A DNA stretch of 64,000 bases from a virus: IMG/VR virus record IMGVR_UViG_3300037245_000806, positions 64,001-128,000 of that record. The stretch is one strand, 5' to 3'. Shown here piece by piece: positions 26,297 through 48,785 of this stretch (the first letter of the stretch is position 1; each line of letters opens with the position of its first letter). The position numbers and the translations under genes are program-made. The notes beneath the pieces were generated by a model. The model was not told the origin of the DNA and made no database searches. It worked only from the letters and a program-made list of their open reading frames with translations.

Positions 26297-29227
26297 TTAC
26301 GCTCTGGCCGGTCCGATCTTCGACATGCCATCGTACCAGATGAGTCCCTTCTTGCCGAGCGCTTTTGCGGCACTCATGAGTTTCTTGAAGTGAATACCGG
26401 TGAACTCAGGGCGCTTGGCGATTGCGGATAGCTTGTAGTCGCCCCCCTCGGCAGTCTTCTCCATGAACGCGAGCAACGCCGCCTGCGCCTTGCCCTTCGC
26501 GGCTGCCTCCTGAATGCCCTCCGCGACCTTCTCGGCACTCACAGAGTCCGTGCCATACATGGAGTCGTCAGCGGGCGTGAGGTACCGCTGAACCTGTCGC
26601 TTCGTGAAGCGGTCCGTGTTGCCGGTCAGCGTGGTGAGCGCCACGATGTCTGGCAGGATGTACTGGACGAACACGCGGCCTGCACCGATCCGCACGCCAG
26701 TGCCGCCCTTCATCTCCTTGTTCAGGATCGCATTGCCCTTGTAGTTGTCGTTGTCATCGATCACGAGCCCGAGCTTCGTGACAAGCTTGTCATTGGACCC
26801 GGCGACACCCTCGGCAATGCCCTTCTTCCAGAGGTCGCAGATATCATCCTGCTCGATCTTCCCGCGCACCAGCTGGCAGGCATCGGGGAGGACCACAGAC
26901 GAGCAAGTTCCGCAGCGCTTGTCGCCGTCCTTGTCAGTCTGCGAATGGCGGTAGTTCACTTCCTCCTTGGGCTTCCGGTCCACCGCTTTGTTGCGGGTGG
27001 GGGCGGCTGCCTCATCGACGGGCTCCAAGACTTTCTCACCCACGTCCTTCGAGGTCATTGAAACGCGCCAACCCTTGCCATTCTTCTTTCGCCACTTACG
27101 CATCAACCTCGCAGAGCCGCGCTTGACCACAATACCCGCAGGGTCCACAAGCACATAGCCCACCATGGCTTCCTGTAGTTTGATGATATTGGCAATGCCT
27201 TTCCCCGCCGGAAGCGAGCGCTGTGACGCCGGGGTGACACCAAGCTCCTTCTTCAGCGCAGCCCGGAACGATGGACTCTTCATGGCGTCAGCAAAGGACA
27301 CGCTGGCGAAGCCACCACTGAGCCTGACCTTCCCGCCGTACTTCTTGGCGAGCGCGCGAAGTGACTTCGTGAACGCACTGTCGGTCGCCTCATCGAGCTT
27401 GACGCGTGTGGTATTGAAGCCCGCGCCCTTGACTGCTCGAATGATGCGACTCACTGAGGCCACTGCTTCTGCTGCCGTCGCAGGCTTACGCCGTAGTGTT
27501 GCCATGAGTTTCTTCGCCCCCGTACCAATTGCCTTGAGCACCTTCACGAGCGTTGCGTCCGGTCGCTTGTCATCCACCGCGCGAATCGCATACGCCTTGA
27601 TCTTATGCTTCCCCTTCGGACCGAAGTCAACAAGATACTCAGGATCAACGGTAGTGTCCTTCGCGACCAGTGACACAATGTTGCCCCGGAGGCTCGCAAC
27701 CTTGACCTTCTGGCCGGGCTTGAAGAAGCTCTCCTCGTCGATGGATTCGCGCAGTGCTCTATGGGGCTCATCCGCGAGGCGATACTTCTGACCCTTGAGC
27801 GTGAACCAATGCTTCTTGCCGTGCGACACCATCACGCCCTTGAGTTGCTCATCCGACACAGCTTCAGCAACCCCCAGCTGAACGTAAACGCGGTAGACGT
27901 GCGAGCGGAAGCTGCTGTCCTCCTCGATGTCGTCCAACGCGAGGTAAATGCGCTTGGCTGCCTGCGTGTTCAGGGCGATACGGTAGTTGGCTCCCGCCTT
28001 CTTCGCCTCGCCTATCGCTTTGACGCCAGCCCGATCCAAGGCATCCTGCGGGTCGTCCACTTCGACGATCTTGTAACGCAACTCCTCGAACAGCTTCTTC
28101 GATACGACAATGTGCCGGGGCAGCTTGTACACTTCATCGATGGACTCGCGCGCGGACTTGAGTTCCTTGTACTCACTCCACCAACCGTCCAACGTCATGG
28201 CGTCCACTTGCGAGGTCATGACGCTCGCCGTGTACCATCCCGACGCACCCCCGCCAATGAAGTAGTAGTAACCCTTACCCTTTACCAGCTTCTCCTTGAC
28301 GCCCTTCGCCTTGAGCATCTTGTTGACCGTGCCGAGGGTCACCTTGCCCTCATCGATGGATTCATTCTTCCTCTTGAGCCGCACCTCGTCAGCCTTCACG
28401 GTGATCTCATTCGGGGTCTGCGTCTTCGTGCCGGGTGCGACACGTGCGTAGTCCTTTGGATCGATCAGGACCACGAGTGTCGCTGGACCCTTCGGATAGA
28501 AGACATTGACATCGCGCTTGATGATCTTGCCGGGGACCGGAGGCTTGACTGCGATGGGCTTGTACCCGCGCTTCCATCCGAACCTGCGGACGACCACGAT
28601 CTCATCGCCCACCTTGTACGTTGGGCCTTTGTAAATGCTCGGTATGAAGATGCGCTTCTCATCGATGGCAGCCGCCTCGAACACTTTCTTCGGACCGCAG
28701 TAGTCACATACACCACATTGCGCGGTGCCACGCCACTGAGTATCCGGGTCGTCCTTGGGGCCGAACCTGATGTGCTCCGTCGAACCGCACTCGGGGCAGA
28801 GCACCTCACTGATATCTTCAGTGGCAAGCAAGGTACCGCTAAGCGGAACCGTGAAGAATCCCTGCTTGCCAGAGCCGCTCGTCCCCGAAGGCCCGTGGCC
28901 GCTGTAGTGCATATGCACCTGAGCACCAGAGCGAGCGTACTTCGGGAAATACTTGGCGATGATCTTCTGCGTCTTCTCAGGGCTGTGATACAGGCGCGCG
29001 ACCGTGAAGTCCTTCGCGTCCTGTGACTTCCCCTTGGTGGCGTCATCGAACTTCAGGTACCGGGCCTTCATGAACGTGTCGGAGTATGCGATGCGCCGTA
29101 GTTTGCTGGCCATCTCAGTGGTGACGAGCACCTCGTACACGCGCAGCTGCTTGCCGACCACCTCGATGGCAAGGTCGCCCCGATAGACTTGGCCCGCACG
29201 CTTCTCAGCTTCTAGGATGGCTGGCAT
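26297..29227 (-). CDS. ~976-aa modular basic protein with [ILV]DE linkers (candidate head polyprotein B)
   Basis: ATG 29227 after GAAGGGG; ESIDE x3, AIDE, LDE, VDE, LQE, IQE linkers; zinc ribbon, SH3-like, HiPIP-like and wHTH-like modules. Confidence 0.8.
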   Translation of the reverse strand: MPAILEAEKRAGQVYRGDLAIEVVGKQLRVYEVLVTTEMASKLRRIAYSDTFMKARYLKFDDATKGKSQDAKDFTVARLYHSPEKTQKIIAKYFPKYARSGAQVHMHYSGHGPSGTSGSGKQGFFTVPLSGTLLATEDISEVLCPECGSTEHIRFGPKDDPDTQWRGTAQCGVCDYCGPKKVFEAAAIDEKRIFIPSIYKGPTYKVGDEIVVVRRFGWKRGYKPIAVKPPVPGKIIKRDVNVFYPKGPATLVVLIDPKDYARVAPGTKTQTPNEITVKADEVRLKRKNESIDEGKVTLGTVNKMLKAKGVKEKLVKGKGYYYFIGGGASGWYTASVMTSQVDAMTLDGWWSEYKELKSARESIDEVYKLPRHIVVSKKLFEELRYKIVEVDDPQDALDRAGVKAIGEAKKAGANYRIALNTQAAKRIYLALDDIEEDSSFRSHVYRVYVQLGVAEAVSDEQLKGVMVSHGKKHWFTLKGQKYRLADEPHRALRESIDEESFFKPGQKVKVASLRGNIVSLVAKDTTVDPEYLVDFGPKGKHKIKAYAIRAVDDKRPDATLVKVLKAIGTGAKKLMATLRRKPATAAEAVASVSRIIRAVKGAGFNTTRVKLDEATDSAFTKSLRALAKKYGGKVRLSGGFASVSFADAMKSPSFRAALKKELGVTPASQRSLPAGKGIANIIKLQEAMVGYVLVDPAGIVVKRGSARLMRKWRKKNGKGWRVSMTSKDVGEKVLEPVDEAAAPTRNKAVDRKPKEEVNYRHSQTDKDGDKRCGTCSSVVLPDACQLVRGKIEQDDICDLWKKGIAEGVAGSNDKLVTKLGLVIDDNDNYKGNAILNKEMKGGTGVRIGAGRVFVQYILPDIVALTTLTGNTDRFTKRQVQRYLTPADDSMYGTDSVSAEKVAEGIQEAAAKGKAQAALLAFMEKTAEGGDYKLSAIAKRPEFTGIHFKKLMSAAKALGKKGLIWYDGMSKIGPARA

Positions 29228-29237
29228 GACTGCCCCT

Positions 29238-29378
29238 TCAGATGAGGTCTTCGATGGAATCGAGCACGCGCTCTGTATCCGGCGACAGCATGATCTCCAT
29301 GACGACCAATGGTAGTGCAATGACGAGCACAACGAAAGCGCGAAGACTGAAGTTCAGCCGTGGCAGATCAGGATACAT
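29238..29378 (-). CDS. 46-aa single-TM peptide
   Basis: ATG overlaps upstream TAA; RAFVVLVIALPLVVMEIML hydrophobic segment. Confidence 0.5.
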   Translation of the reverse strand: MYPDLPRLNFSLRAFVVLVIALPLVVMEIMLSPDTERVLDSIEDLI

Positions 29379-30584: not shown

Positions 30585-33500
30585 TTACTCGTCAAGTGCC
30601 GGGTCGGCTGCCTCGATCTCCTCTTCCGTCGCAGGTCTGACCTCTCCCGTTGGTGACACAACGTCACTGCCGCACTCGACGCACTTCGCGACGGTAGTCA
30701 GATTGAGGAATGCAATCGATGCACTTGAGCAATGCTCGCACCGAACCTCAGCCATGATGGGGCCGACGTCCGCGCACTCCTCTTTGCCTAGCCCGAGCAT
30801 GTTCTTGAACACTGCGGTGACAAGCTTGTAGTAACGCGAGCCATCACCACCCTCATCCTTGGACTTCTTGATATCCGGGTACTGCTTGTTGACCGCAGCC
30901 TGCGCCTTGCCCCACAGCTTGATCGCTTCATTCGCTGTCTTGCCCGCCTTGCGTGCGAGCGCCTTCATGTGCGTGGGCTCTTTCACCTTGCCCGCGCCGG
31001 GATAGGTCGTGGAAAGCTGGGCTTCGGTCACGCCCTCGACGGCTTCACCCAACGCCTTGAGCACCTTCGTGAGATGCCACAGGCCGATCTTGATATTGGA
31101 CGCGGAGACGAACGTGTCACGTAGTGTTTTCCCGTCACCCTTGGCCGCAGCATCGAACTTATTCACGAGCGCGACAGGGAGCGACCTCGTGAACGTGAAC
31201 ACGAGACGACCCTTACTGTCCACGACCCACTTGTCCCACGCGACGTTGTTCTTCTTGAGCCACCCGATCATCTTGTTGATGACCTTCTTGGCAGCCGGGT
31301 GCTTGTCCAAGTCGTCCTGCGTGTAGCCCTTGTCAGCTTCGTCCACATCTTCCTTGACCGTGAAGCCCTTGCCCTTCTTGAGGCCGTGCTTGGCGAGCGC
31401 TGGCAGCAGGTACTTCATGTGCTTCTGCTGGACGATCACGTAGTGGGTTCCGTCCGTGTCCTTCCGCATCCCGCTCGCTGTCTGCGAACTGATGACCGCA
31501 GCGATGTCGTCGGCCTTCTGCTTCGAGAGCTTGCCGAACTCCAAGGTCACCGCAGCCTCATCGAGGTCTTCCGTCTTGATATCCTTCGCACGATCCGCCA
31601 GCCCCTTGGCACCCTTGAGCGTAGGGTGAGAGCCGATGTCCTTGATGACCTTCTTGCCCTTCAGGATGACAACCCCGAACTGGTCCTGATGCGGCACCGG
31701 CTTGGGGTATCGCAGGAACACAACGCCGCCGCCTGTCTTCGCCCGGTACACGATCTTCTTGCCGGGGGCGTAGTCCTCTTCGAGGTCTTCGGACTCGGCA
31801 ACCTTCTTGATCACCGTGGCAGCCTTACGTGCGTTGTCGAACTTCTGGCCCTTCGCTTCGAGTTCGCCCTGCTTGCCACCCACCCACGCCTTGCCCGTCC
31901 ACACCTCGCGCGGATTGGCAATCGACCCCGACTTCCGGCGCACGAGAATAACTTCAGCGTACCCGGTCGCGGAAAGCTTGAGCGTCATGTACTCGTAGTC
32001 GCCCTTGGTGAACGAGACTTCGTCGAGGCCCGCCGCCTCAAGCTCGTCGCCCCCATCGAAGTCCTCGTCGGTCTTCTTCTTGCTGATCTTATCAATGGTG
32101 ACGATCTTGCCGCCGGGGAACTCAGTGAGCATTATCCGCGCGAGCTTCATGCTCTTCATGTAGAGGGGTTTGCCCGAACCCTTTTGAACGACGGCGTGCG
32201 TGTACCCGCGTGCCTGCAAGATGGCGGCGAGGCGCTTCTCTTGCACGTCCACAACTTCGTCGAGGTCCACGTCTTCCTTGACCACCTTGACGTCTGCCTT
32301 CAGGAACTTGCGCCCGTCTGCCACGACGACAATGTACTTGCCCTCGTCACGTAGTTTCGTCGGGTCCGCAACGCCCTCGCCCTTCTTCCAGACGCCGCCC
32401 TTCGATCCGTCCTTGTTGACCGGGACGGTGCCCCTCGGGTTAGAGATCGAGAAGGTGCCCTTGAAGGTCTTCGCCTCATCGAGGTCTTCCTTGAGCGCCG
32501 GGTCATTCAGGTTCACGACAATCGTGTTGCCACGGAACTGAATCGACTTCTTGTTGGTCTCCGGGTACTCGATGCTGAACGTGCGCATGAAACTGTCCCG
32601 GCGGTCCTCGCTTGGTAGTGTGATGACTGCGGTCTTACCGGAGACCTTCAGCTTGCCCTTGTCGTCCTTCGCCATGATCTTCAGGGAGGCGAGCGCAGCC
32701 TCATCGACAGACTCGTGGGCTTTCTTCTTGCGCCACTTCCAGCCCTTGTTCGCCACCTCGTTGGACTTGTTGAGCTTGGCAGCCTCCTTGGGAGTCATGG
32801 ACTTGAAGACCTTCTTGACGCCGGTCTTCCTGACCGGGTTGTTCTGCGAGTCAACGAGTACGTAGTCTGCTTCGTCGATGCCTTCCCTCGGACCCGTCTT
32901 CTTGGCCTTCGCAATCGGGACAAGGACTTCCTCGTCGCCCTTCTTGGGGCGGGGGTTCGTCACCCTGACCTTGAGCGTGTTGTTGACATCGCTTATCACC
33001 GCACCCTGCATCAGCTTTCCATTGGGCGCAGTCCACGTGATGCGCTGGCCCTTCTTGAACACCTCGTCAAGGCCCTCGGTGGGATTCTTGTTGTAGTCGG
33101 CCCCGAAGACATACCCGTACTTCTTGAGCGCCTTGAGCATCTCCTTGTCCTTGAGGGCTTTCTTGTCACCGCGTCCAGCGGGCGTCATGGACAATACCGA
33201 CAGGCCCATCAACCGCGCGGTCACGACGGCAACCTGCTCGTCGCCCTTAAACACGGGGCGCACGATCACCGAAAACCGATTCGGATACTTCCCTGCCTTA
33301 TCCGTGTGGAAGCCGCCGAGCCCGTAGACGTCCCCGAGCGTCATCACGATGTGTCGGCCAACCTTGCGCGTAAGCTTCCCGTCACTGCCGGGGGTTGGCC
33401 CCTTCTCATCGAGGTCGTCATCGGACTCGTTCTTCTTCTTGTCGGCCACCCCGCGAGCGTAGCCTTTCTTGTATGCCTTGATCCGGGCGCGTGACCAATT

Positions 33501-36500
33501 CTTCTTGTCGAACTCCTTCTTCTCCTGCTCGCCCTTCGTCGCCGCGATGTGCCCGTGCATGAATGAAGCATGAGCCGCATCACCACGGGTGCCACTGCGA
33601 CCGTACTCCTCGATGGCCGCTGCTTCCGCGAGGTCTTCGTAGTCATCCCCATCAATGGACTCTGCAACATAGGTCGCATTGAGGGCCTGAGCCACAACGT
33701 CTTTACCGGACCCCTTCTTGGTGAGCTTCACGTGACGATACATCTGAAGGAGCAGTAGTCCCGCTGAGACCTCAGGCTCCGAGAGCCCCGTGGCCTTCAC
33801 GATGGCCTTGCCAGTGATAGGCTTCTTCGCCTTCTTCACCGCAGCGAGCATCGCCTTCTCACGCTTGTCCAGCGGCGCGCGCTCATCGAGGTCGTCCTCG
33901 GAGACAGTCTTCTTCTTGCACTTCACGCAGTACCCTGTCGCGGCGAGCACCTTGCTGCCGCAGCCCGGACACTTGACGGTCCCCGTAGTGGCCTTCTCAT
34001 CGAGCATGGCTTCGGAGTGCAGGAGCAAGTCCTCCGCATCCTCATCCGCGATGTGCCCCATGTCCTCGCCGTCAATCACGAGCGAGTAGGTATCGTCGTC
34101 CTCCGTAACGATCTCGATCTCGCACTCCTTGACCTTGCGGTCAAGCTGGATCATGTGACCAAGCTTGGCCTCGTCATCGCGGAGCGGCCTGACCCACGTG
34201 CCCTTGCCCTTCACCTTCCACCCGGCGGCGGTCATACCGAGCGCGCGTGAAACAGCGCGGAGAATCGTCTTGATCTGGTTGTCGCCCTCAGCTGCCGGGG
34301 CACCCAACGTGACCTGCGCAGTCTTGCCAACAACCTTGCGCGTTGCGATGGGGTTGTCGGCACCGCGACGAACTGCAACAAGGGCGTCACCCTTGATGCC
34401 GATGGTCCTCGTAGTACGCCCCTTGCCATCGCCGCCGCGCACGAAGTCCGAGATAACTATCTTGGCCTTCATCGGGATGCTATAGCCCTTCACCTCATCG
34501 ACTGACTCGATGATCGAGAGCCCCTCTGCCTTGGCTGCCTTGCGGATTGCGTTGACCCATGTCTGACTCACGTTGCCCTGCGGATCACCGAGCACAATCC
34601 GGTTGCCCTTGCGCGTAGCGAGCGGGTCTTTGCGACCGCGCGAAGGTCCGGTGAGGATGTCGCCCTCGATGTCAAGGTTCTTCGCCTTGACGCCCGAGCC
34701 ATCCTTGCCCTGCACGAAGGCCTTGATCATCTTGCGGTCGCCCGCCTTCAGCTTGTAGCCCATGGACTCCCGTAGTCGTGACACAGTGTTATCATCTTCG
34801 CCGAGGGCGAGGAGACGCATGCGACAGGCGCTTTCGACCGCTACGTCCCGAGTCGCTATAAACTCGTGGCTTCTCCCACTTTTGATGCCTTCAAACAGGC
34901 TCGTAACACAACGTTCGCCCTCCACAACAGTACCATGCTCCTCAACGTACTCCTGAAAGAAGGCTTCAACCATGACGTCAAACTCGTTGGGAAGGTCCGC
35001 ATAGAATTCAACCATCTTCTCAAGAAGGCTATGGACTTCCTGTAGTGTGATCGGAACCCTGTACGCCTGACCGCCAACCTGTACCAACGTCTTCCCATCA
35101 TCCGTACCATCCCTGCGTGCGGTCCATGAAAGGAACTTGGACTGAAAGCCCTCCTCCCCCTCCATGTACAGCGGGCCTTGCTGTAGTTCAGGCTCGAAGC
35201 CCACGCACAGTACCTCACCGGGGTGGATCATCTTGTTCTCGCCTGAGCCCACCACGGGAGCGCCTATAAGATTGTGCGAACCCTCGGGGTCATCCTTACC
35301 CTTGTCTGACTCACTGACATCCTTGCTGAGGCTCTTGAGCATACGCAGGTCTGTTGCCACCGAAGCGTTCTTCTTCTTCTTGCCTGACTTGATATCCTTC
35401 CGCAGCTGCCTGAGGGCTTTCTTCATCCCGTCCGCTGTGGCCCGCACTCCATAGCCCTTGGCGTACTGCTTCAGTTCCCTGCTGTGACCGTAGGCTTCGT
35501 CGATACCTTCGTTGGGGGCCTTCGCGCTGAACTTCTTGACTTCCTTCTTGAGCACGTGTGTCTGGACTCCCGGTTCGAGTTCCACCTTGTACCCGGTCGC
35601 GGTCTTCTTGATAACCGTGACGGTCTTGCCCTTGGCGTACTTCTTGCCCTTGAGCTTCAGGTCCGTAGTGAGCATGTACGCCTCGTCGATAGACTCGAAG
35701 GGCTTCGTGAGTTTCGTCATGCGCGCATACGGGAGCTTGTCCCAATGCGCGTGGGCAGCCTTGACCACTTCAGCCTTCTCCTTCGGATCGCCGTAGTCAC
35801 CGAAGGACATCGCAGCTTTCTTCCACCCTCTCGGGCTCAGCTTCTTCAGGCGCTTCTGAATCTTCTTGACCGTCTTCACCTCGTTGTCGGCGAAGCTCAG
35901 GATCATGAAGGCGACAAGGTCTTTGATGGTACCCTTGTCTGCTTCGTCGAGGTCTTCCACTTTGGGGAACCACAGCCCGCCGTTGCCATACCACCGCACG
36001 CCATTGGCATCCTCAACACAGAGGATACTGTTCTCGGCATCCTCATTGAGCGTGGAGTCGTGCAGGTCGGGGTACAGGAACTGGAACGCATTGTCAGTGA
36101 CCCCACCCTCTTCGCAGATGGCTACGTAGTCTGCCTTGGTCTCGGGGCGCAGGCCCTCGGTCTTCATCGCGGGGTCTTCCTCTTTGGACTTCGCGGTTGC
36201 CTTGGCGAAGCCCGCACGCTTCGGGAAGCATTCGATGATCGTGAAGTCGCTGACCTGACCGGACTCGAAGTCGGTATCGCCAGCGGTGACGAGAGTGTCC
36301 AGCTTGCAGAAACCCCTCACACCTTCGTTGAGCTTCTGAAGAGGCTCGGCAGCAATCTTGCCTTGGAAGATCGCGAGGAACGTAGTGTCCGTTCCTTCGA
36401 GTTGTGTCTCAAGGAACTGCGTGATGAGGTCGCCGCACTTCTCCATGAGGTACGCCTCGAAGAGGATCGCGGCCATGCCCGTGTCGGTGTTGCTGAAGGC

Positions 36501-36830
36501 CGGGCTCTTGTCGGTGAAGTTCTTGGCGAACTCGCGGGCGCTCTGCTTCTCGTCCTGAAACCCGGAGGCGACTTCGAGGATGAGGTCAATGTACTCGTCG
36601 CGGTGTGAGATGCTGCCGGTGATGGTAGCGGGGAGGTCGAGGCTCGACCGGAGCTTGGCAACCTTCTTATAGAATCCGCTGGCCTTCTTCTGGCGAACCG
36701 ATGCCTTCTGCTTGGCACTCAGGCGCTTGGGCTTCCTGAACTTCATGAGCCTGCGGCGCTTCTTGGCCTTGATGCCCTGTAGTCTGCGCTGGGAGGAAGA
36801 CTGCCGACGAACGGTTGCCTCAAATACCAT
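30585..36830 (-). CDS. 2081-aa modular basic protein with 15 internal [ILV]DE linkers (candidate head polyprotein A)
   Basis: Repeated E[SGD][ILV]DE linkers separate 55-110 aa Lys-rich modules; has its own sigma70-like promoter. Confidence 0.85.
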   Translation of the reverse strand: MVFEATVRRQSSSQRRLQGIKAKKRRRLMKFRKPKRLSAKQKASVRQKKASGFYKKVAKLRSSLDLPATITGSISHRDEYIDLILEVASGFQDEKQSAREFAKNFTDKSPAFSNTDTGMAAILFEAYLMEKCGDLITQFLETQLEGTDTTFLAIFQGKIAAEPLQKLNEGVRGFCKLDTLVTAGDTDFESGQVSDFTIIECFPKRAGFAKATAKSKEEDPAMKTEGLRPETKADYVAICEEGGVTDNAFQFLYPDLHDSTLNEDAENSILCVEDANGVRWYGNGGLWFPKVEDLDEADKGTIKDLVAFMILSFADNEVKTVKKIQKRLKKLSPRGWKKAAMSFGDYGDPKEKAEVVKAAHAHWDKLPYARMTKLTKPFESIDEAYMLTTDLKLKGKKYAKGKTVTVIKKTATGYKVELEPGVQTHVLKKEVKKFSAKAPNEGIDEAYGHSRELKQYAKGYGVRATADGMKKALRQLRKDIKSGKKKKNASVATDLRMLKSLSKDVSESDKGKDDPEGSHNLIGAPVVGSGENKMIHPGEVLCVGFEPELQQGPLYMEGEEGFQSKFLSWTARRDGTDDGKTLVQVGGQAYRVPITLQEVHSLLEKMVEFYADLPNEFDVMVEAFFQEYVEEHGTVVEGERCVTSLFEGIKSGRSHEFIATRDVAVESACRMRLLALGEDDNTVSRLRESMGYKLKAGDRKMIKAFVQGKDGSGVKAKNLDIEGDILTGPSRGRKDPLATRKGNRIVLGDPQGNVSQTWVNAIRKAAKAEGLSIIESVDEVKGYSIPMKAKIVISDFVRGGDGKGRTTRTIGIKGDALVAVRRGADNPIATRKVVGKTAQVTLGAPAAEGDNQIKTILRAVSRALGMTAAGWKVKGKGTWVRPLRDDEAKLGHMIQLDRKVKECEIEIVTEDDDTYSLVIDGEDMGHIADEDAEDLLLHSEAMLDEKATTGTVKCPGCGSKVLAATGYCVKCKKKTVSEDDLDERAPLDKREKAMLAAVKKAKKPITGKAIVKATGLSEPEVSAGLLLLQMYRHVKLTKKGSGKDVVAQALNATYVAESIDGDDYEDLAEAAAIEEYGRSGTRGDAAHASFMHGHIAATKGEQEKKEFDKKNWSRARIKAYKKGYARGVADKKKNESDDDLDEKGPTPGSDGKLTRKVGRHIVMTLGDVYGLGGFHTDKAGKYPNRFSVIVRPVFKGDEQVAVVTARLMGLSVLSMTPAGRGDKKALKDKEMLKALKKYGYVFGADYNKNPTEGLDEVFKKGQRITWTAPNGKLMQGAVISDVNNTLKVRVTNPRPKKGDEEVLVPIAKAKKTGPREGIDEADYVLVDSQNNPVRKTGVKKVFKSMTPKEAAKLNKSNEVANKGWKWRKKKAHESVDEAALASLKIMAKDDKGKLKVSGKTAVITLPSEDRRDSFMRTFSIEYPETNKKSIQFRGNTIVVNLNDPALKEDLDEAKTFKGTFSISNPRGTVPVNKDGSKGGVWKKGEGVADPTKLRDEGKYIVVVADGRKFLKADVKVVKEDVDLDEVVDVQEKRLAAILQARGYTHAVVQKGSGKPLYMKSMKLARIMLTEFPGGKIVTIDKISKKKTDEDFDGGDELEAAGLDEVSFTKGDYEYMTLKLSATGYAEVILVRRKSGSIANPREVWTGKAWVGGKQGELEAKGQKFDNARKAATVIKKVAESEDLEEDYAPGKKIVYRAKTGGGVVFLRYPKPVPHQDQFGVVILKGKKVIKDIGSHPTLKGAKGLADRAKDIKTEDLDEAAVTLEFGKLSKQKADDIAAVISSQTASGMRKDTDGTHYVIVQQKHMKYLLPALAKHGLKKGKGFTVKEDVDEADKGYTQDDLDKHPAAKKVINKMIGWLKKNNVAWDKWVVDSKGRLVFTFTRSLPVALVNKFDAAAKGDGKTLRDTFVSASNIKIGLWHLTKVLKALGEAVEGVTEAQLSTTYPGAGKVKEPTHMKALARKAGKTANEAIKLWGKAQAAVNKQYPDIKKSKDEGGDGSRYYKLVTAVFKNMLGLGKEECADVGPIMAEVRCEHCSSASIAFLNLTTVAKCVECGSDVVSPTGEVRPATEEEIEAADPALDE

Positions 36831-36873: not shown

Positions 36874-36902
36874 AGGATAGGTGAGCCTTAACACAGTGTC
36901 AA
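36874..36902 (-). promoter_or_regulatory. promoter TTGACA-17-TATCCT overlapped by palindrome
   Basis: -35 36897-36902, -10 36874-36879; TAACACAGTGTCA 36889-36901. Confidence 0.7.
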
Positions 36903-37411
36903 GCGACATGTTGCCACGATTTGCGCGTGACAACGGCACTGATTGCACCGAGACTTACAAGGTATTCCGCAGCAAGATCAGCGTATGTTACGCCACCAAC
37001 GGCATAGAGCGCCCTGATTTCTTTGACGTCACACGCGGTCAACTTGGAGCCATAATTCTTTTCACCCACGTTGTTTTGCAAGACAATGGCGCTATGCCTT
37101 TGGTTGTCTTCGGGTGTCGCGTACTCAAGGTTCACCAAGCGACAGTCAGCCTTAATGCCGTTTATGTGGTTCACGTGGTAGCCCCAAGGGCATGGGCCGA
37201 TGAACGCGGCGGCTACCTGTTGATGCACCTGAACTGTTTCAGCCATCCCGTCCACACTGAAGTCCAGATGCAAATAACCAGTGCTCAGATTAACATGCGT
37301 CTTTAGAATACCGCCGTTGGTCCTCTTGCGCGCGATACTGAAAATCCGACCTAAATCTGAAATACGGTAGTAGCCCACGTACCCTACAACGTCCTCCCAG
37401 AGTTCGACCAA
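36899..37411 (-). CDS. NUMOD4-HNH homing endonuclease
   Basis: W.DV.GY.GYY.IS.LGRI (NUMOD4), VHQ.VA.AF...VNHING.K.D.RL.NLEY.T..DN..H (HNH), C-terminal HTH. Confidence 0.9.
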   Translation of the reverse strand: MVELWEDVVGYVGYYRISDLGRIFSIARKRTNGGILKTHVNLSTGYLHLDFSVDGMAETVQVHQQVAAAFIGPCPWGYHVNHINGIKADCRLVNLEYATPEDNQRHSAIVLQNNVGEKNYGSKLTACDVKEIRALYAVGGVTYADLAAEYLVSLGAISAVVTRKSWQHVA

Positions 37412-46366: not shown

Positions 46367-46839
46367 GCTGACAGTATCCCCGTGGGTCGAGACTTAATGC
46401 CGAACTTCCGCGCCTGCGCGTCAATGTGCTGCCGGAATGAGTGCATCGCACTCGACGTCCGACTCGTATGGCTCTTGGCCTTGGAGCTACCATGGTTGGT
46501 GCGCCGGTACGTGTCGATCTCTTTATTGCGGTGCCTGCGATAAGGGCACGCGGCCCTGAGTTGATTCCTGAACGCGCGCGACCCGTTGAAGGACGGAAGG
46601 CAGTGCTTCTCCAAGCCCTTCTTACGTGGCGTGTAGCCATACGGGGCGAAGATTCCGAAGCCGGGGATGCGCACGATCTCGCCCCGCGTAACCTCGTCGG
46701 CGGTGTATTCGAGGAAATAGGCGACAAGGTTCGCAGCGAAATGGTCGCTCACGCCCATCTTCTGCGCACACTTCGTGATGGTGCGCTGTAGTGGCTCGCC
46801 CTGCTTCGTCGTCGGCATGAACGGTATGCGTACAATCAC
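46363..46839 (-). CDS. HU/IHF-like DNA-binding protein with basic C-terminal extension
   Basis: GEIVRIPGFGIF...P.F..SRAFR; coupled to the portal stop. Confidence 0.75.
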   Translation of the reverse strand: MIVRIPFMPTTKQGEPLQRTITKCAQKMGVSDHFAANLVAYFLEYTADEVTRGEIVRIPGFGIFAPYGYTPRKKGLEKHCLPSFNGSRAFRNQLRAACPYRRHRNKEIDTYRRTNHGSSKAKSHTSRTSSAMHSFRQHIDAQARKFGIKSRPTGILSA

Positions 46840-48785
46840 TTGGCTTCGTCCTTCCCCGTGTCTTCGTCCTTCTCAGCGTCTTCGTCCTCGTTGATCGGAG
46901 GCGCAACCTTGAGCGCCGCCATGTCCTCCTTGAGCAACTTCGCTTCCTTGTCGTCCTCGTAATCGTCTTCCAACAACTTCCCGGCGACAACAGGAGGCAG
47001 AATGCTCGGGTCGGTCTGCTGGAACGCACGACGCACCAACATGCTAACCTGCGCGTCCTTAGCGTCTGCCTCGTCAGCTGCCTCGTTGACTTCGTCTTCG
47101 TAGTAGTACGCTAGGTCGCCAACAACCTTCCGAAGCTCAGGGCTGCGGTGCATCATCTTGGCGATCTCAAGCTGCTCATTCGGGCTGACCGAAGTGAACC
47201 CGGTTGGCGTCATGTCCTCCATGATTGCGTTACGCGCGTCTGGGTTCATGGCCAACAGCGTACCCCTGACGCGGGGTGACAGGTTCTCCATACCTCCGAA
47301 GCCTTCACCACCACCACCAGCAGCAGCAGCGGCAGGCTCGACCGGCGTCTTGGAAATAAGCTTCAGCACAAGGTCTTCAGGAAGCTTCGCGTAGTTCAGG
47401 AGAATGTAAATCGCCCACACCTTCGGGTCCAACTGCATGTCGGCGGCGAGTCTGCTCATCGACTCCACGATCTGGTACCGCAGCTGGACGAGTTCAAGCC
47501 GCTCCCACTCGTCCAAGTACGATATCGGCGACATCTGTACAAGGAATTCCTTGTCAGGCTGATGGAAGTCATAGGTGTCATCGTTGGGCTCAGTCGGGAG
47601 CAACGTGTAGTGTATTTCTAGCGTCTGCCTGATCCCATATATCGTTGACCGCTGAAGACGCTTCGCACTGCGCGCGAACCGCACGTCCTGCTGGACAAGC
47701 GTTGCCTTCGCGTTGATCTCGCCCTCGAAGCCGAAGTACGCCTTGGGCACCTTGGCGGTACCGAAGAACTTGTCGCGGAAGTGTTCGAGGTCGTACAACT
47801 CGCCCATATTACCCGCGCCGGAAAGCGTCTCGATACGCGTGTTGTTATTCGGGCGCATCGCCACGAAGACATCTTCCAGCGGCGTCAGAGGATTATACTG
47901 CTTCTTGTAGTTGGGGCTCGACGGATCAATGAACTCAAGCTTCCTGAACCGCTTCCGCCAACTGTTGAGGTACGAAACAGCGTCGTGCTCCTCCATATTC
48001 CCGACGTCAACCATCACAAGATTGCGGTCCGGTGCGCGCCGCATCCGGTACATGAGCACACTGTCCTCGGCGAGGGTGAGTTGCCGCCACGGTCGGAATA
48101 GAGCGTCCAGTATCGCGGTGCCGTATCCGGCCTCCTCGTACTTGCCTAGCAACCGGAAGTGTACGTAGTCCCACGGCCACGAAACCTTCCGCTTCTTCTG
48201 CCGATACTTCTGGCCGTCTTCCCTGAAGCCGATCAAGCGGCCATACTTATCTTCAAGTCGATGCACCTTGCTAGACGATGCCACCTTCCAGCCGAGCACA
48301 CCCTTGCCTGTCTGATAGATCAACCGCTGGAATGCGTCACCGAGCTTGCCTGTCCGACGCGTTATGAACTGGACCCGGTCTTCCATCTGCGTGTTACGCA
48401 GGCACTCGTTACCGGCAGTGATCATGGCCTTCGACTTGGATTCGATCCACACGGAAACACCACGGTCGTAATCACGCTGGGTGGCTTCTTCCGCGTACAC
48501 GTCGAGGATAGCTGAGACGAGACCGAACGTATCCATCTCTGAAAAGATGCGATACCGCTCCTTGCGATCACGCGCGATGCTGAGGTAGTTGGTATACCAT
48601 TCCTGCGACTGCTCCGCGAGGGCGGCAGCTTCGTCACCATCGCCGGTAACAGTCACCGGGTGCGAGTGGCGTCCAAACAATCCAGTGAGTCGCCAAAACC
48701 ACCCAACTTGGTGGGGGTCGGCCAAGCGCTGCTCACCGGAGTAACTCGGCACAGGCTTCTTTACTTGATCCTGAAGACCGGGCAC
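46836..48785 (-). CDS. portal protein (T4 gp20-like)
   Basis: WRQL.LAEDS.L.YRMRRAPDR....VDVGNM, EDVF, IETL.GA.N.GE..D..HF..K, QDVRFAR. Confidence 0.92.
   Translation of the reverse strand: MPGLQDQVKKPVPSYSGEQRLADPHQVGWFWRLTGLFGRHSHPVTVTGDGDEAAALAEQSQEWYTNYLSIARDRKERYRIFSEMDTFGLVSAILDVYAEEATQRDYDRGVSVWIESKSKAMITAGNECLRNTQMEDRVQFITRRTGKLGDAFQRLIYQTGKGVLGWKVASSSKVHRLEDKYGRLIGFREDGQKYRQKKRKVSWPWDYVHFRLLGKYEEAGYGTAILDALFRPWRQLTLAEDSVLMYRMRRAPDRNLVMVDVGNMEEHDAVSYLNSWRKRFRKLEFIDPSSPNYKKQYNPLTPLEDVFVAMRPNNNTRIETLSGAGNMGELYDLEHFRDKFFGTAKVPKAYFGFEGEINAKATLVQQDVRFARSAKRLQRSTIYGIRQTLEIHYTLLPTEPNDDTYDFHQPDKEFLVQMSPISYLDEWERLELVQLRYQIVESMSRLAADMQLDPKVWAIYILLNYAKLPEDLVLKLISKTPVEPAAAAAGGGGEGFGGMENLSPRVRGTLLAMNPDARNAIMEDMTPTGFTSVSPNEQLEIAKMMHRSPELRKVVGDLAYYYEDEVNEAADEADAKDAQVSMLVRRAFQQTDPSILPPVVAGKLLEDDYEDDKEAKLLKEDMAALKVAPPINEDEDAEKDEDTGKDEAK

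What the first reader, a model, noticed from the sequence alone, without database searches (positions are those of the whole stretch)
30585..36830. 2081-aa 'beads on a string' protein: candidate capsid-packaged polyprotein cut by the prohead protease
Seen: 15 internal acidic linkers ending in [ILV]DE, at about 35950 EDLDE, 35690 ESIDE, 35500 EGIDE, 34500 ESVDE, 34000 MLDE, 33890 DDLDE, 33410 DDLDE, 33070 EGLDE, 32880 EGIDE, 32710 ESVDE, 32480 EDLDE, 32260 DLDE, 32025 GLDE, 31560 EDLDE and 31345 EDVDE, plus variants (DLEE, VTE, LAE). They separate mostly 55-110 aa, Lys/Arg-rich modules that are largely unrelated to each other: SH3/KOW-like barrels, a CxxC-CxxC ribbon, a winged helix. Known: the T4 gp21 prohead protease cleaves head proteins after Glu in (I/L)-x-E, and this phage has a T4-type portal. 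Inference: one gene packages a cargo of ~18 small basic proteins, freed during head maturation and injected with the DNA (like T4 internal proteins). Linker-flanked modules could be gained or lost as cassettes, giving an expandable effector or anti-defence array.
Basis: partly seen in the sequence, partly recalled or inferred. Interest (0 to 1): 0.92.

Follow-up and report, generated by a model that had tools for sequence, protein, structure and literature searches.

The report
Phage head-cargo polyprotein with protease linkers
An uncultured T4-like phage strings about 18 small, mostly basic protein modules behind one conserved N-terminal domain, joined by the cutting motif of its own head-maturation protease. 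The 2081-residue protein is therefore probably loaded into the capsid and cut into many separate internal proteins, a way of packaging cargo that I did not find described for tailed phages; no cut or packaging has been measured.

Summary
Window 30585-36830(-) is one 2081-aa ORF with 16 [ILV]-D-E motifs, against 2.1 expected. All 15 listed sites are confirmed, and a 16th forms the C-terminus. The consensus is E-[DGS]-[ILV]-D-E|[AVKR].

The genome (143 kb, about 98% complete) encodes a T4 gp21-type protease (Peptidase_S77). The same motif sits where that protease should cut:
- at the major capsid protein's propeptide junction (VIDE|VTR), conserved as [ILV]-[DN]-E in 119 of 120 relatives;
- at both ends of the protease domain itself.

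The extended motif occurs 16 times in the whole proteome (0.46 expected), all in four proteins.

Homologues share the N-terminal, central and C-terminal domains. Their modules differ in kind, order and copy number, yet keep the linkers (up to 28 per protein). All 26 copies of five module families are preceded by [ILVM]-x-E in a register that is fixed for three of them. One module also exists as stand-alone 85-111-aa proteins, whose short leaders end in L/V-x-E at the aligned position, like T4 capsid-targeting sequences.

Best reading (about 0.7): a prohead-loaded polyprotein cut into internal proteins. Injection and anti-defence roles are untested. It is a new variant of a known kind. The scan noted the neighbouring second polyprotein in this genome, but found nothing similar on other DNA.

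The parts
30585..36830 (-). Polyprotein gene, 2081 aa (P0001)
   Evidence: homologues P0002-P0012
36874..36902 (-). Sigma70-like promoter match (TTGACA-17-TATCCT). Its -35 hexamer overlaps a copy of the genome-wide 13-bp palindrome (36889-36901). A GAGAGGGG ribosome-binding site precedes the ATG.
   Evidence: consensus match only
35943..36830 (-). Conserved N-terminal domain, residues 1-296, ending in site 1 (EDLDE|A). It is the family hallmark and the candidate prohead-targeting or anchor domain.
   Evidence: About 85 of 154 representative hits match this part, in proteins of about 180-3246 aa. AF2 pLDDT 84.6. No clear structural match.
35682..35690 (-). Site 2, ESIDE383|A
35496..35504 (-). 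Site 3, EGIDE445|A
34761..35291 (-). Conserved central domain, residues about 514-690, shared with P0002-P0007 and P0012
34782..34790 (-). Variant site L-R-E683|S directly before the GYK module. It aligns with the end of the leaders of the stand-alone homologues.
34494..34781 (-). GYK module, residues 684-779, ending in site 4 (ESVDE779|V). Stand-alone homologues are P0100, P0108, P0113 and P0134. It is predicted to be a compact alpha/beta domain.
34206..34493 (-). Diverged tandem duplicate of the GYK module, residues 780-875
   Evidence: 30% identity, E 2e-11
33996..34004 (-). Site 5, AMLDE945|K
33882..33995 (-). CxxC...CxxC zinc-ribbon module, residues 946-983, ending in site 6 (DDLDE983|R). 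Many small proteins match it.
33405..33413 (-). Site 7, DDLDE1142|K
33063..33071 (-). Site 8, EGLDE1256|V
32871..32879 (-). Site 9, EGIDE1320|A. It closes module H (1257-1320), which is shared with P0002 and P0006.
32700..32708 (-). Site 10, ESVDE1377|A
32475..32483 (-). Site 11, EDLDE1452|A. It closes module D (1378-1452), found at other positions in P0003 and P0004 and twice in P0006.
32256..32264 (-). Site 12, VDLDE1525|V
32019..32027 (-). Site 13, AGLDE1604|V. It closes module F (1526-1604), which is shared with P0005 (twice), P0006 and P0011.
31776..31784 (-). Variant site EDLEE1685|D
31557..31565 (-). Site 14, EDLDE1758|A
31338..31346 (-). Site 15, EDVDE1831|A
30588..31022 (-). Conserved C-terminal domain with a zinc ribbon, residues 1937-2081. 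It follows variant site GVTE1936|A and ends in site 16 (PALDE-stop).
26297..29332 (-). Second, shorter polyprotein of the same operon (P0276) with 6 [ILV]DE sites, three of them ESIDE. Its module 331-394 equals a 70-position stand-alone PHROG family. Its C-terminal module resembles (by eye) modules in P0006 (C-terminal) and P0007 (internal).
34779..34791 (.). Copy of the gene-junction palindrome inside the ORF, at codons 677-680, just before a module boundary

Best explanation
The gene encodes a polyprotein that is built into the prohead and cut there by the phage's own T4 gp21-type serine protease. Cutting occurs after the Glu of each E-x-[ILV]-D-E linker. The conserved 296-residue N-terminal domain is the part shared by the whole family and most likely anchors the protein in the scaffolding core; this is inferred. 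Cutting at 16 strong sites, plus a few weaker [ILV]-x-E sites, would release about 18 folded, mostly lysine-rich proteins of 4-18 kDa plus three larger conserved pieces. All products are made in equal numbers and trapped inside the shell, where they would lie with the packaged DNA as T4 internal proteins do. Because each bead carries its own upstream site, beads can be added, lost, duplicated or exchanged without evolving a targeting signal of their own.

Shown: the motif, its enrichment, its identity with the predicted capsid-protein and protease sites, its conservation, and the shuffling of modules.

Inferred: cleavage, packaging and retention.

Speculative: ejection into the host and the function of the beads (DNA charge neutralisation, counter-defence or host takeover).
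For: (1) Enrichment. There are 16 [ILV]DE against 2.1 expected. The extended motif E[DGS][ILV]DE occurs 16 times in the whole 45,319-aa proteome against 0.46 expected, and only in four proteins: this one (10), the neighbouring polyprotein (3), the protease-scaffold protein (2) and one acidic-propeptide protein (1). The 2589-aa virion-linked protein is not enriched.

(2) The protease. Peptidase_S77 lies at G000:C1:41759-43378 (65.9 bits in the genome search; 63.2 bits for the protein, cut-off 27; PHROG head maturation protease). It aligns to T4 gp21, including the ..HP.. His and GVSSRG Ser motifs. It also aligns at the N-terminal QLLIE that corresponds to T4's LIE-9 site; here the sequence reads QLLIESIDE|S. 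Directly after the protease domain lies VEGLDE|S, which is positionally conserved in a relative (VEDLDE|T) and in a distant one (ATLTE|T).

(3) The capsid protein (PF07068) has RFVIDE81|VTR seven residues before the start of the Gp23 profile. In T4, LTE65|A lies 23 residues before it. In 120 homologues (58-100% identity) this position is [ILV] in 119, D in 105 or N in 12, and E in 119.

(4) T4 gp21 cuts after L/I-X-E and removes 10-19-aa targeting propeptides from internal proteins (PMC9026906).

(5) Homologues P0002-P0007, P0009, P0011 and others are all enriched in the motif, up to 28 sites in P0006. Their module order and copy number differ.

(6) All 26 copies of five module families are preceded by [ILVM]xE, at a fixed distance for three families.

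(7) Stand-alone homologues of the GYK module carry short leaders ending VDE|, LNE| or LKE| exactly where the polyprotein has its site. In a 236-kb phage contig, six neighbouring genes share one such leader.

(8) The site codons vary synonymously, so the selection acts on the peptide and this is not a DNA repeat.

(9) In the AF2 model the GYK module has pLDDT above 90, falling to about 50 at the linker.

(10) Gene order (thymidylate genes, polyprotein, second large protein) is conserved in relatives.
Against: There is no experimental evidence of any kind: the phage is uncultured and no virion proteome exists.
- The N-terminal domain has no recognisable relation to any known head or targeting protein, so packaging is inferred only from the protease logic.
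- No short T4-type targeting leader is present at the protein's own N-terminus.
- The test of module-boundary coincidence using raw BLAST ends is only moderately significant (8 of 20 starts within 10 aa against 3.6 expected, P about 0.02).
- A real co-variation test failed for lack of contig access: it would have asked whether relatives whose capsid junction has N at P2 also have LNE linkers.
- Distant family members carry few sites, so dense cutting is a trait of a subclade, not of the whole family.
- No module has a known function.
Confidence: 0.7

Rival explanations
1. It is an uncut multidomain virion or ejection protein, a 'polyvalent protein' in the sense of Iyer et al. 2017. The acidic E-x-[ILV]-D-E stretches are only flexible spacers between basic domains, and the protein acts as one long chain.
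For: Large multidomain phage proteins that travel with the DNA are known, and some are packaged unprocessed, such as N4 virion RNA polymerase (PMC5512222). Acidic linkers between basic domains could arise for solubility. Distant family members have few sites.
Against: A spacer needs no fixed five-residue motif with invariant Glu at the last position. It also would not match the capsid-protein junction and the protease's own sites. Stand-alone module homologues carry a leader ending at the aligned Glu. The protein's own C-terminus ends in LDE. Other large proteins of the same phage are not enriched.
Confidence: 0.12
2. It is a sacrificial core or scaffold component. It is cut at the linkers as proposed, but the pieces are expelled from the prohead like T4 gp22 fragments, or serve only as assembly or size-determining material. 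They are not cargo.
For: In T4 the core proteins gp22, gp67 and gp68 are cut by gp21 (PMC9026906; their degradation to small peptides that leave the head is recalled, not checked here). Many sites in one protein recall a scaffold.
Against: The phage already has a gp22-like acidic coiled-coil tail fused to its protease. The beads are basic, conserved, partly zinc-binding folded domains of 4-18 kDa. They are exchanged between phages and kept as separate genes elsewhere, which fits retained functional products better than disposable peptides.
Confidence: 0.08
3. It is a cytoplasmic protein that is not packaged. The motif would then be cut by another protease, or serve as a short linear motif recognised by some other partner.
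For: The promoter-like site upstream is sigma70-type with an operator-like palindrome, not an obvious late promoter. Packaging is not shown.
Against: The only protease domain sought and found in the genome is the prohead protease, and no peptidase domain lies inside the protein. The gene heads a run of virion-protein genes. The motif is shared specifically with head proteins.
Confidence: 0.06

Closest known systems
Phage T4 internal proteins IPI, IPII, IPIII and Alt: capsid-targeting sequence plus gp21 cleavage (PMC9026906, PMC3012670)
   Same: The protease family is the same (Peptidase_S77) and so is the cleavage rule, after Glu in [ILV]-x-E. The cargo is likewise small, basic and diverse, lies with the DNA inside the head, and varies fast between related phages. 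One bead has stand-alone relatives with T4-like cleavable leaders.
   Different: In T4 each internal protein is a separate gene with its own 10-19-residue leader. Here about 18 units are translated as one chain behind a single 296-residue conserved domain and separated by internal sites. P2 is almost always Asp. No bead is homologous to a T4 internal protein.
Polyvalent proteins of phages and conjugative elements (Iyer, Burroughs, Anand, de Souza, Aravind 2017, PMC5512222)
   Same: A single giant phage polypeptide combines many unrelated domains, with rapid domain shuffling between relatives. It is proposed to travel with the DNA and to be processed into separate products.
   Different: Polyvalent proteins are defined by recognisable conflict enzymes and DNA-binding domains, and release is proposed to rely on an embedded zincin-like peptidase. 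Here no such domain or internal peptidase is detectable, and release would be in trans by the prohead protease at a repeated, explicit linker motif.
Inner-body and ejection proteins of giant phages phiKZ, 201phi2-1 and SPN3US, processed by gp175 or gp245 (PMC10052503, PMC9026906)
   Same: A gp21-related protease cuts many head proteins after x-x-Glu. Several cuts can fall in one protein, and the products stay with the DNA and are ejected.
   Different: In those phages the multiple cuts lie within N-terminal propeptides that are removed, leaving one mature product per gene: 14 sites in 9 proteins in SPN3US. Here 16 or more sites lie between folded modules, giving many mature products per gene.
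MuF polymorphic toxins of temperate phages (Jamet et al. 2017, PMC5576092)
   Same: A conserved N-terminal head-associated domain is followed by a variable C-terminal cargo. The wider family of the N-terminal domain found here (about 85 representative clusters, about 180-3246 aa) has this general layout.
   Different: The Pfam scan of the protein at E up to 1 listed no MuF domain. There are many cargo modules instead of one toxin domain, and explicit protease linkers.
Polyproteins of RNA viruses and retroviruses
   Same: One ORF gives many mature proteins in fixed stoichiometry, separated by short protease recognition sites.
   Different: The protease is encoded elsewhere in the genome and would act only inside the assembled prohead. 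The products are accessory cargo, not the replication or structural core. The host is a dsDNA tailed phage.

Membership tests
Substrates of a T4 gp21-type prohead protease (T4 internal-protein logic) | The genome encodes a Peptidase_S77 prohead protease with the catalytic motifs | tested here: met
   PF03420, 65.9 bits against a cut-off of 27, at G000:C1:41759-43378. The alignment to T4 gp21 keeps the HP and GVSSRG motifs.
Substrates of a T4 gp21-type prohead protease (T4 internal-protein logic) | Cleavage motif [IL(V)]-x-Glu at the junctions, the same as at the phage's capsid-protein maturation site | tested here: met
   There are 16 [ILV]DE sites. The capsid junction VIDE|VTR is conserved in 119 of 120 relatives. 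The protease's own sites are IESIDE|S and VEGLDE|S. The T4 rule L/I-X-E is from PMC9026906.
Substrates of a T4 gp21-type prohead protease (T4 internal-protein logic) | Short (10-19 aa) N-terminal capsid-targeting propeptide | tested here: not met
   The N-terminus is a 296-aa conserved folded domain. Only stand-alone relatives of one bead have short leaders.
Substrates of a T4 gp21-type prohead protease (T4 internal-protein logic) | Protein found in proheads or virions in cleaved form | not testable with these tools
   Uncultured phage from a metagenome; no proteome available.
Polyvalent proteins (Iyer et al. 2017) | Many unrelated domains in one phage polypeptide, shuffled between relatives | tested here: met
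   Module map of eight homologues; 26 module copies in varied positions.
Polyvalent proteins (Iyer et al. 2017) | Recognisable conflict-related enzymatic or DNA-binding domains | tested here: not met
   Pfam gave only a sub-threshold S27e zinc ribbon and PHROGs gave none. One distant relative (P0007) has an AAA+ domain.
Polyvalent proteins (Iyer et al. 2017) | Embedded peptidase (zincin-like MPTase) for self-processing | tested here: not met
   No peptidase family hit at E up to 1.
MuF polymorphic toxins | N-terminal MuF (SPP1 gp7-like) domain | tested here: not met
   Pfam scan of the whole protein at E up to 1 lists no MuF family. The fold searches of the N-domain gave no clear match and listed no MuF-type protein, which does not exclude a distant relation.
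Scaffold or core proteins degraded by the protease (T4 gp22 type) | Acidic, largely helical or coiled-coil protein | tested here: not met
   The protein has K+R 17.2% against D+E 14.4%, and most modules have pI 8.3-10.1. The modelled parts are mixed alpha/beta. The gp22-like acidic tail is fused to the protease instead.

The most novel reading that the evidence does not exclude
Tailed phages of this T4-related clade use a true polyprotein strategy for capsid cargo. One conserved N-terminal head-targeting domain loads an open-ended array of 'site plus module' cassettes, and the prohead protease then separates them. Cassettes move between stand-alone leader-bearing internal-protein genes and the polyprotein, and between the two polyproteins of one phage. 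The result is an evolvable, equimolar set of 15-30 injected small proteins. This would be the first polyprotein cargo system described in Caudoviricetes, and a natural platform for loading arbitrary proteins into capsids.
Probability: 0.5. Interest if true: 0.85.

Novelty: new variant of a known kind. Interest (0 to 1): 0.78.

Why it matters
Internal capsid proteins are the first phage molecules to meet the host, but they are hard to recognise because they evolve fast and have no shared fold. This locus offers a sequence rule: the phage's own protease motif, read off the capsid protein's maturation site, marks such cargo and delimits each unit.

If the cutting is confirmed, three things follow:
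- Tailed phages can package a large and changeable set of small proteins from one gene, in fixed stoichiometry, with a single targeting domain.
- About 18 proteins here, and up to about 30 in relatives, become candidates to test as DNA-condensing, counter-defence or takeover factors.
- The T4 'targeting sequence plus protease site' packaging tool could be extended to multi-protein payloads.

It also links stand-alone leader-bearing internal-protein genes in jumbo-phage contigs to beads in polyproteins, which suggests how such arrays arise.

Tried and rejected
- Phage database: tblastn of the protein against 50,697 phage records gave no match. The capsid protein is below 30% identical to any isolate.
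- Family searches: Pfam and PHROGs on the protein and on stand-alone module homologues gave nothing informative.
- Fold searches of the N-terminal domain model gave no clear match: Foldseek against PDB and BFVD, and VIA wide (best Z 5.8, a small ferredoxin-like subdomain resembling EpsL/EpsM).
- Fold searches of the GYK module model gave no match (Z at most 4.2). The second half of that model had no alignment support and is uninformative.
- ESM Atlas on the GYK module gave no usable hit.
- The search for related loci in IMG/VR with the N-domain, as a single sequence and as alignments, found no relatives.
- The genome search on the relatives' contigs is not possible because the records are not held. 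The polyprotein and the protease or capsid genes of one relative could therefore be linked only for NODE_15.
- P2 co-variation (Asp versus Asn) between capsid junction and linkers could not be completed. P0013 has five [IL]NE sites and no [ILV]DE, but it lies on a 14.8-kb contig without head genes.
- A search for shorter proteins with the module-rich part (1143-1936) found only a 99% identical fragment.
- No homology was found between this protein and any other protein of the same genome, including the 2589-aa virion-linked protein.
- A literature search for phage polyproteins processed by a prohead protease returned nothing relevant.
- The DNA-repeat explanation for the linkers is rejected, because the codons vary synonymously.

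Full report
THE OBJECT

Window 30585-36830, minus strand, is a single ORF of 2081 codons. It has GC3 of 0.79 and a GAGAGGGG ribosome-binding site. A sigma70-like promoter match lies 44 nt upstream of the ATG.

The window is bases 64001-128000 of a 143,033-bp virus record rated 98% complete. The gene follows thymidylate kinase and an HNH endonuclease. It heads a minus-strand run of large genes with virion, tail and head-decoration matches. The T4-type portal lies at 46836-48785.

THE OBSERVATION

[ILV]-D-E occurs 16 times, against 2.1 +/- 1.4 in 2000 shuffles with a maximum of 9.

The consensus is E-[DGS]-[ILV]-D-E|[AVKR]. The codons vary synonymously (GAA/GAG, GAC/GAT, CTC/CTT), so this is a peptide motif and not a DNA repeat.

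The segments between sites are 38-334 aa, and most have pI 8.3-10.1. Weaker [ILV]-x-E candidates (LRE683, VTE910, LAE1069, LEE1685, VTE1936) subdivide the longer segments.

IS THE MOTIF THE PROTEASE'S SITE?

The genome encodes one Peptidase_S77 protein at G000:C1:41759-43378. It is 539 aa: a protease domain plus an acidic coiled-coil tail that looks like a fused scaffold.
- It aligns to T4 gp21 through the HP and GVSSRG motifs.
- It also aligns at the N-terminal QLLIE, which in T4 is the LIE-9 site conforming to the gp21 logo (PMC9026906). Here the sequence reads QLLIESIDE|S.
- Directly after the protease domain lies VEGLDE|S. The close relative NODE_15 has VEDLDE|T at the same column and a distant relative has ATLTE|T.

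The next gene is the Gp23-family capsid protein.
- It carries RFVIDE81|VTR seven residues before the Pfam profile starts. T4 gp23 is cut at LTE65|A, 23 residues before the profile start.
- In 120 metagenomic homologues (58-100% identity) the three positions are [ILV] in 119, D in 105 or N in 12, and E in 119.

T4 gp21 cuts after L/I-X-E (PMC9026906). The linkers of the 2081-aa protein therefore carry exactly the motif found at the two places where a gp21-type protease is expected to cut in this clade.

Proteome-wide, E[DGS][ILV]DE occurs 16 times against 0.46 expected, and only in four proteins:
- this protein (10);
- the 1011-aa protein two genes downstream (3);
- the protease-scaffold protein (2);
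- a 450-aa protein with an acidic N-part followed by GESVDE|R and a basic module (1).

The 2589-aa Nudix-bearing protein next to the head genes is not enriched.

RELATIVES

The word-indexed search found seven long homologues of 1433-3246 aa. The exhaustive search with residues 1-1200 found 154 representatives, about 85 of which match the N-terminal 296 residues, in proteins of about 180-3246 aa.

Close relatives share three blocks: the N-terminal domain, a central domain (about 514-690) and a C-terminal domain with a zinc ribbon. Between these blocks they carry different sets of modules.

All close relatives are enriched in [ILV]DE: 8-12 sites in P0002-P0004 and P0007, 19 in P0005 and 28 in P0006. 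Distant members have few sites, or use N or other residues at P2.

The boundary after the N-domain is an [ILV]DE site in five of the six closest homologues (P0001, P0002, P0004, P0005, P0006), although a different module follows in each; P0003 lacks one there.

Five module families were traced by anchor motifs. All 26 copies are preceded by [ILVM]-x-E, whatever their position and host protein. The distance is fixed for three families: 0, 1 or 2 residues. Using raw BLAST ends, the coincidence is only moderate (8 of 20 starts within 10 aa against 3.6 expected).

Residues 684-779 and 780-875 are a diverged tandem duplicate separated by ESVDE. Gene order around the locus is conserved in four relatives.

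STAND-ALONE BEADS WITH LEADERS

The module at 684-779 (GYK...GNVSQTW) has stand-alone homologues of 85-111 aa. In the alignment their short N-terminal leaders end in VDE|, LNE| or LKE|. This is exactly where the polyprotein has LRE683|S, and where P0004 and P0089 have LDE|G and VDE|V.

One homologue lies in a 236-kb phage-like contig. There, six neighbouring genes of unrelated bodies share one roughly 22-residue leader of the type MK[IL]TKK.LT.II.E...[LI]NE. That is the layout of T4 internal proteins, which are diverse bodies behind a conserved cleavable capsid-targeting sequence (PMC9026906, PMC3012670).

A module of the neighbouring polyprotein (residues 331-394, between two ESIDE sites) matches the whole length of a 70-position PHROG family. 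Beads are thus autonomous proteins elsewhere, and at least one family is of the leader-bearing, internal-protein type.

STRUCTURE

- The N-domain model is confident (pLDDT 84.6): basic N-terminal helices followed by an alpha/beta body. It has no clear match in PDB or BFVD.
- The GYK module is predicted as a compact alpha/beta domain with pLDDT above 90, falling to about 50 at the ESVDE linker. It has no known fold match.

MECHANISM, WITH STATUS

1. The protein is made from its own promoter-like site. This is a consensus match only.
2. It is incorporated into the prohead core, probably through the conserved N-terminal domain. This is inferred from that domain being the family-wide constant, and from the fact that gp21-type proteases act inside proheads.
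3. The protease cuts after each [ILV]-D-E. This is inferred from motif identity, conservation and the homology to leader-bearing proteins.
4. The basic folded pieces are too large to leave the shell and stay with the DNA. This is inferred by analogy with T4, where about 1000 internal protein molecules lie with the DNA and their lysines contact phosphates (PMC3012670).
5. The pieces enter the host with the DNA and act there. This is speculative.

The polyprotein format gives equimolar products and lets a bead be packaged without a targeting signal of its own, which explains the cassette-like turnover.

RIVALS

- An uncut multidomain protein with acidic spacers does not explain the invariant Glu, the match to capsid and protease sites, or the leaders of the stand-alone homologues.
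- A disposable scaffold is unlikely, because the beads are basic, folded, conserved and exchanged, and a gp22-like tail already exists on the protease.
- A non-virion protein cut by another enzyme has no support beyond the absence of direct packaging evidence.

COMPARISON AND NOVELTY

The process is that of T4 internal proteins, and the general idea is that of polyvalent proteins (PMC5512222) and of giant-phage ejection proteins (PMC10052503). In those systems, however, each gene yields one mature product, or release is ascribed to an embedded peptidase.

I found no paper in the held library describing a tailed-phage polyprotein with many internal prohead-protease sites.

The scan's notes show that the neighbouring 976/1011-aa polyprotein of this same genome was read the same way by another agent. 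That is not independent evidence. No look-alike was noted on other DNA.

VERDICT

The core interpretation (a polyprotein cut by the prohead protease) is well supported in silico but unproven. The effector and anti-defence role is open. I class it as a new variant of a known kind.

Noticed in passing
L007:5140-10762 (ENA DOMB18-1 scaffold_5, 235.8 kb): Six neighbouring genes with unrelated bodies share one roughly 22-aa N-terminal leader (MK[IL]TKK.LT.II.E...[LI]NE). This looks like a capsid-targeting-sequence gene family in a jumbo-phage contig, and one member is a stand-alone copy of a bead of the polyprotein.
   Followed up: partly
window 34779-34791 and 36889-36901: The genome-wide 13-bp palindrome TRACACWRTGTYA normally sits at gene junctions. 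One copy overlaps the -35 hexamer of the polyprotein's promoter-like site. Another lies inside the ORF at codons 677-680, three residues before the LRE683|S site that opens the GYK module. The internal copy may be a relic of a former gene junction, that is, of a bead gene fused in frame.
   Followed up: partly
G000:C1:59462-60814 (-), 3186-4538 bases before the window start: A 450-aa protein (P0277) has an acidic 286-aa N-part with an Asp run, then GESVDE|R, a basic module, VTLDE|S and an acidic tail. It is probably another prohead-protease substrate with a long propeptide. It has no PHROG match.
   Followed up: partly
window 26297-29332 (-): A second polyprotein (P0276) has six [ILV]DE sites. 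Its last module (..GIHFKKL.SAAKALGKKG..YDG.S) resembles, by eye, the C-terminal module of the 3246-aa relative P0006 and an internal module of P0007. Modules therefore seem to move between the two polyprotein genes, or the two genes are fused in some phages.
   Followed up: partly
L009:1-1277 (NCBI GCA_044240345.1 contig, relative): The relative's T4-type portal protein is 1061 aa and carries an intein (PF14890 together with PF07230).
   Followed up: no
L010:14248-14742 (JGI Ga0452209_014691): The homologue P0004 ends in a low-complexity tail and overlaps the next ORF. This is probably a frameshift (assembly error or real) that truncates the polyprotein.
   Followed up: no
window 36899-37411 (-): An HNH homing-type endonuclease sits directly upstream of the polyprotein here. 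In relatives it lies at another place in the thymidylate gene block or is absent, so it is a mobile insertion.
   Followed up: no
P0007, P0067, P0068 (distant family members): Some proteins with the same N-terminal domain carry an AAA+ ATPase domain in their variable part, so the family's cargo is not limited to small basic modules.
   Followed up: no
window 36819-36827 (codons 2-4) and homologues' N-termini: The first 4-8 residues of most family members already contain an [ILV]-x-E (MVFE|A, MPRPISE|V, MSDHVNE|V, MPTLTE|A) just before the conserved TVRRQ. This may be a very short N-terminal propeptide, or chance.
   Followed up: no
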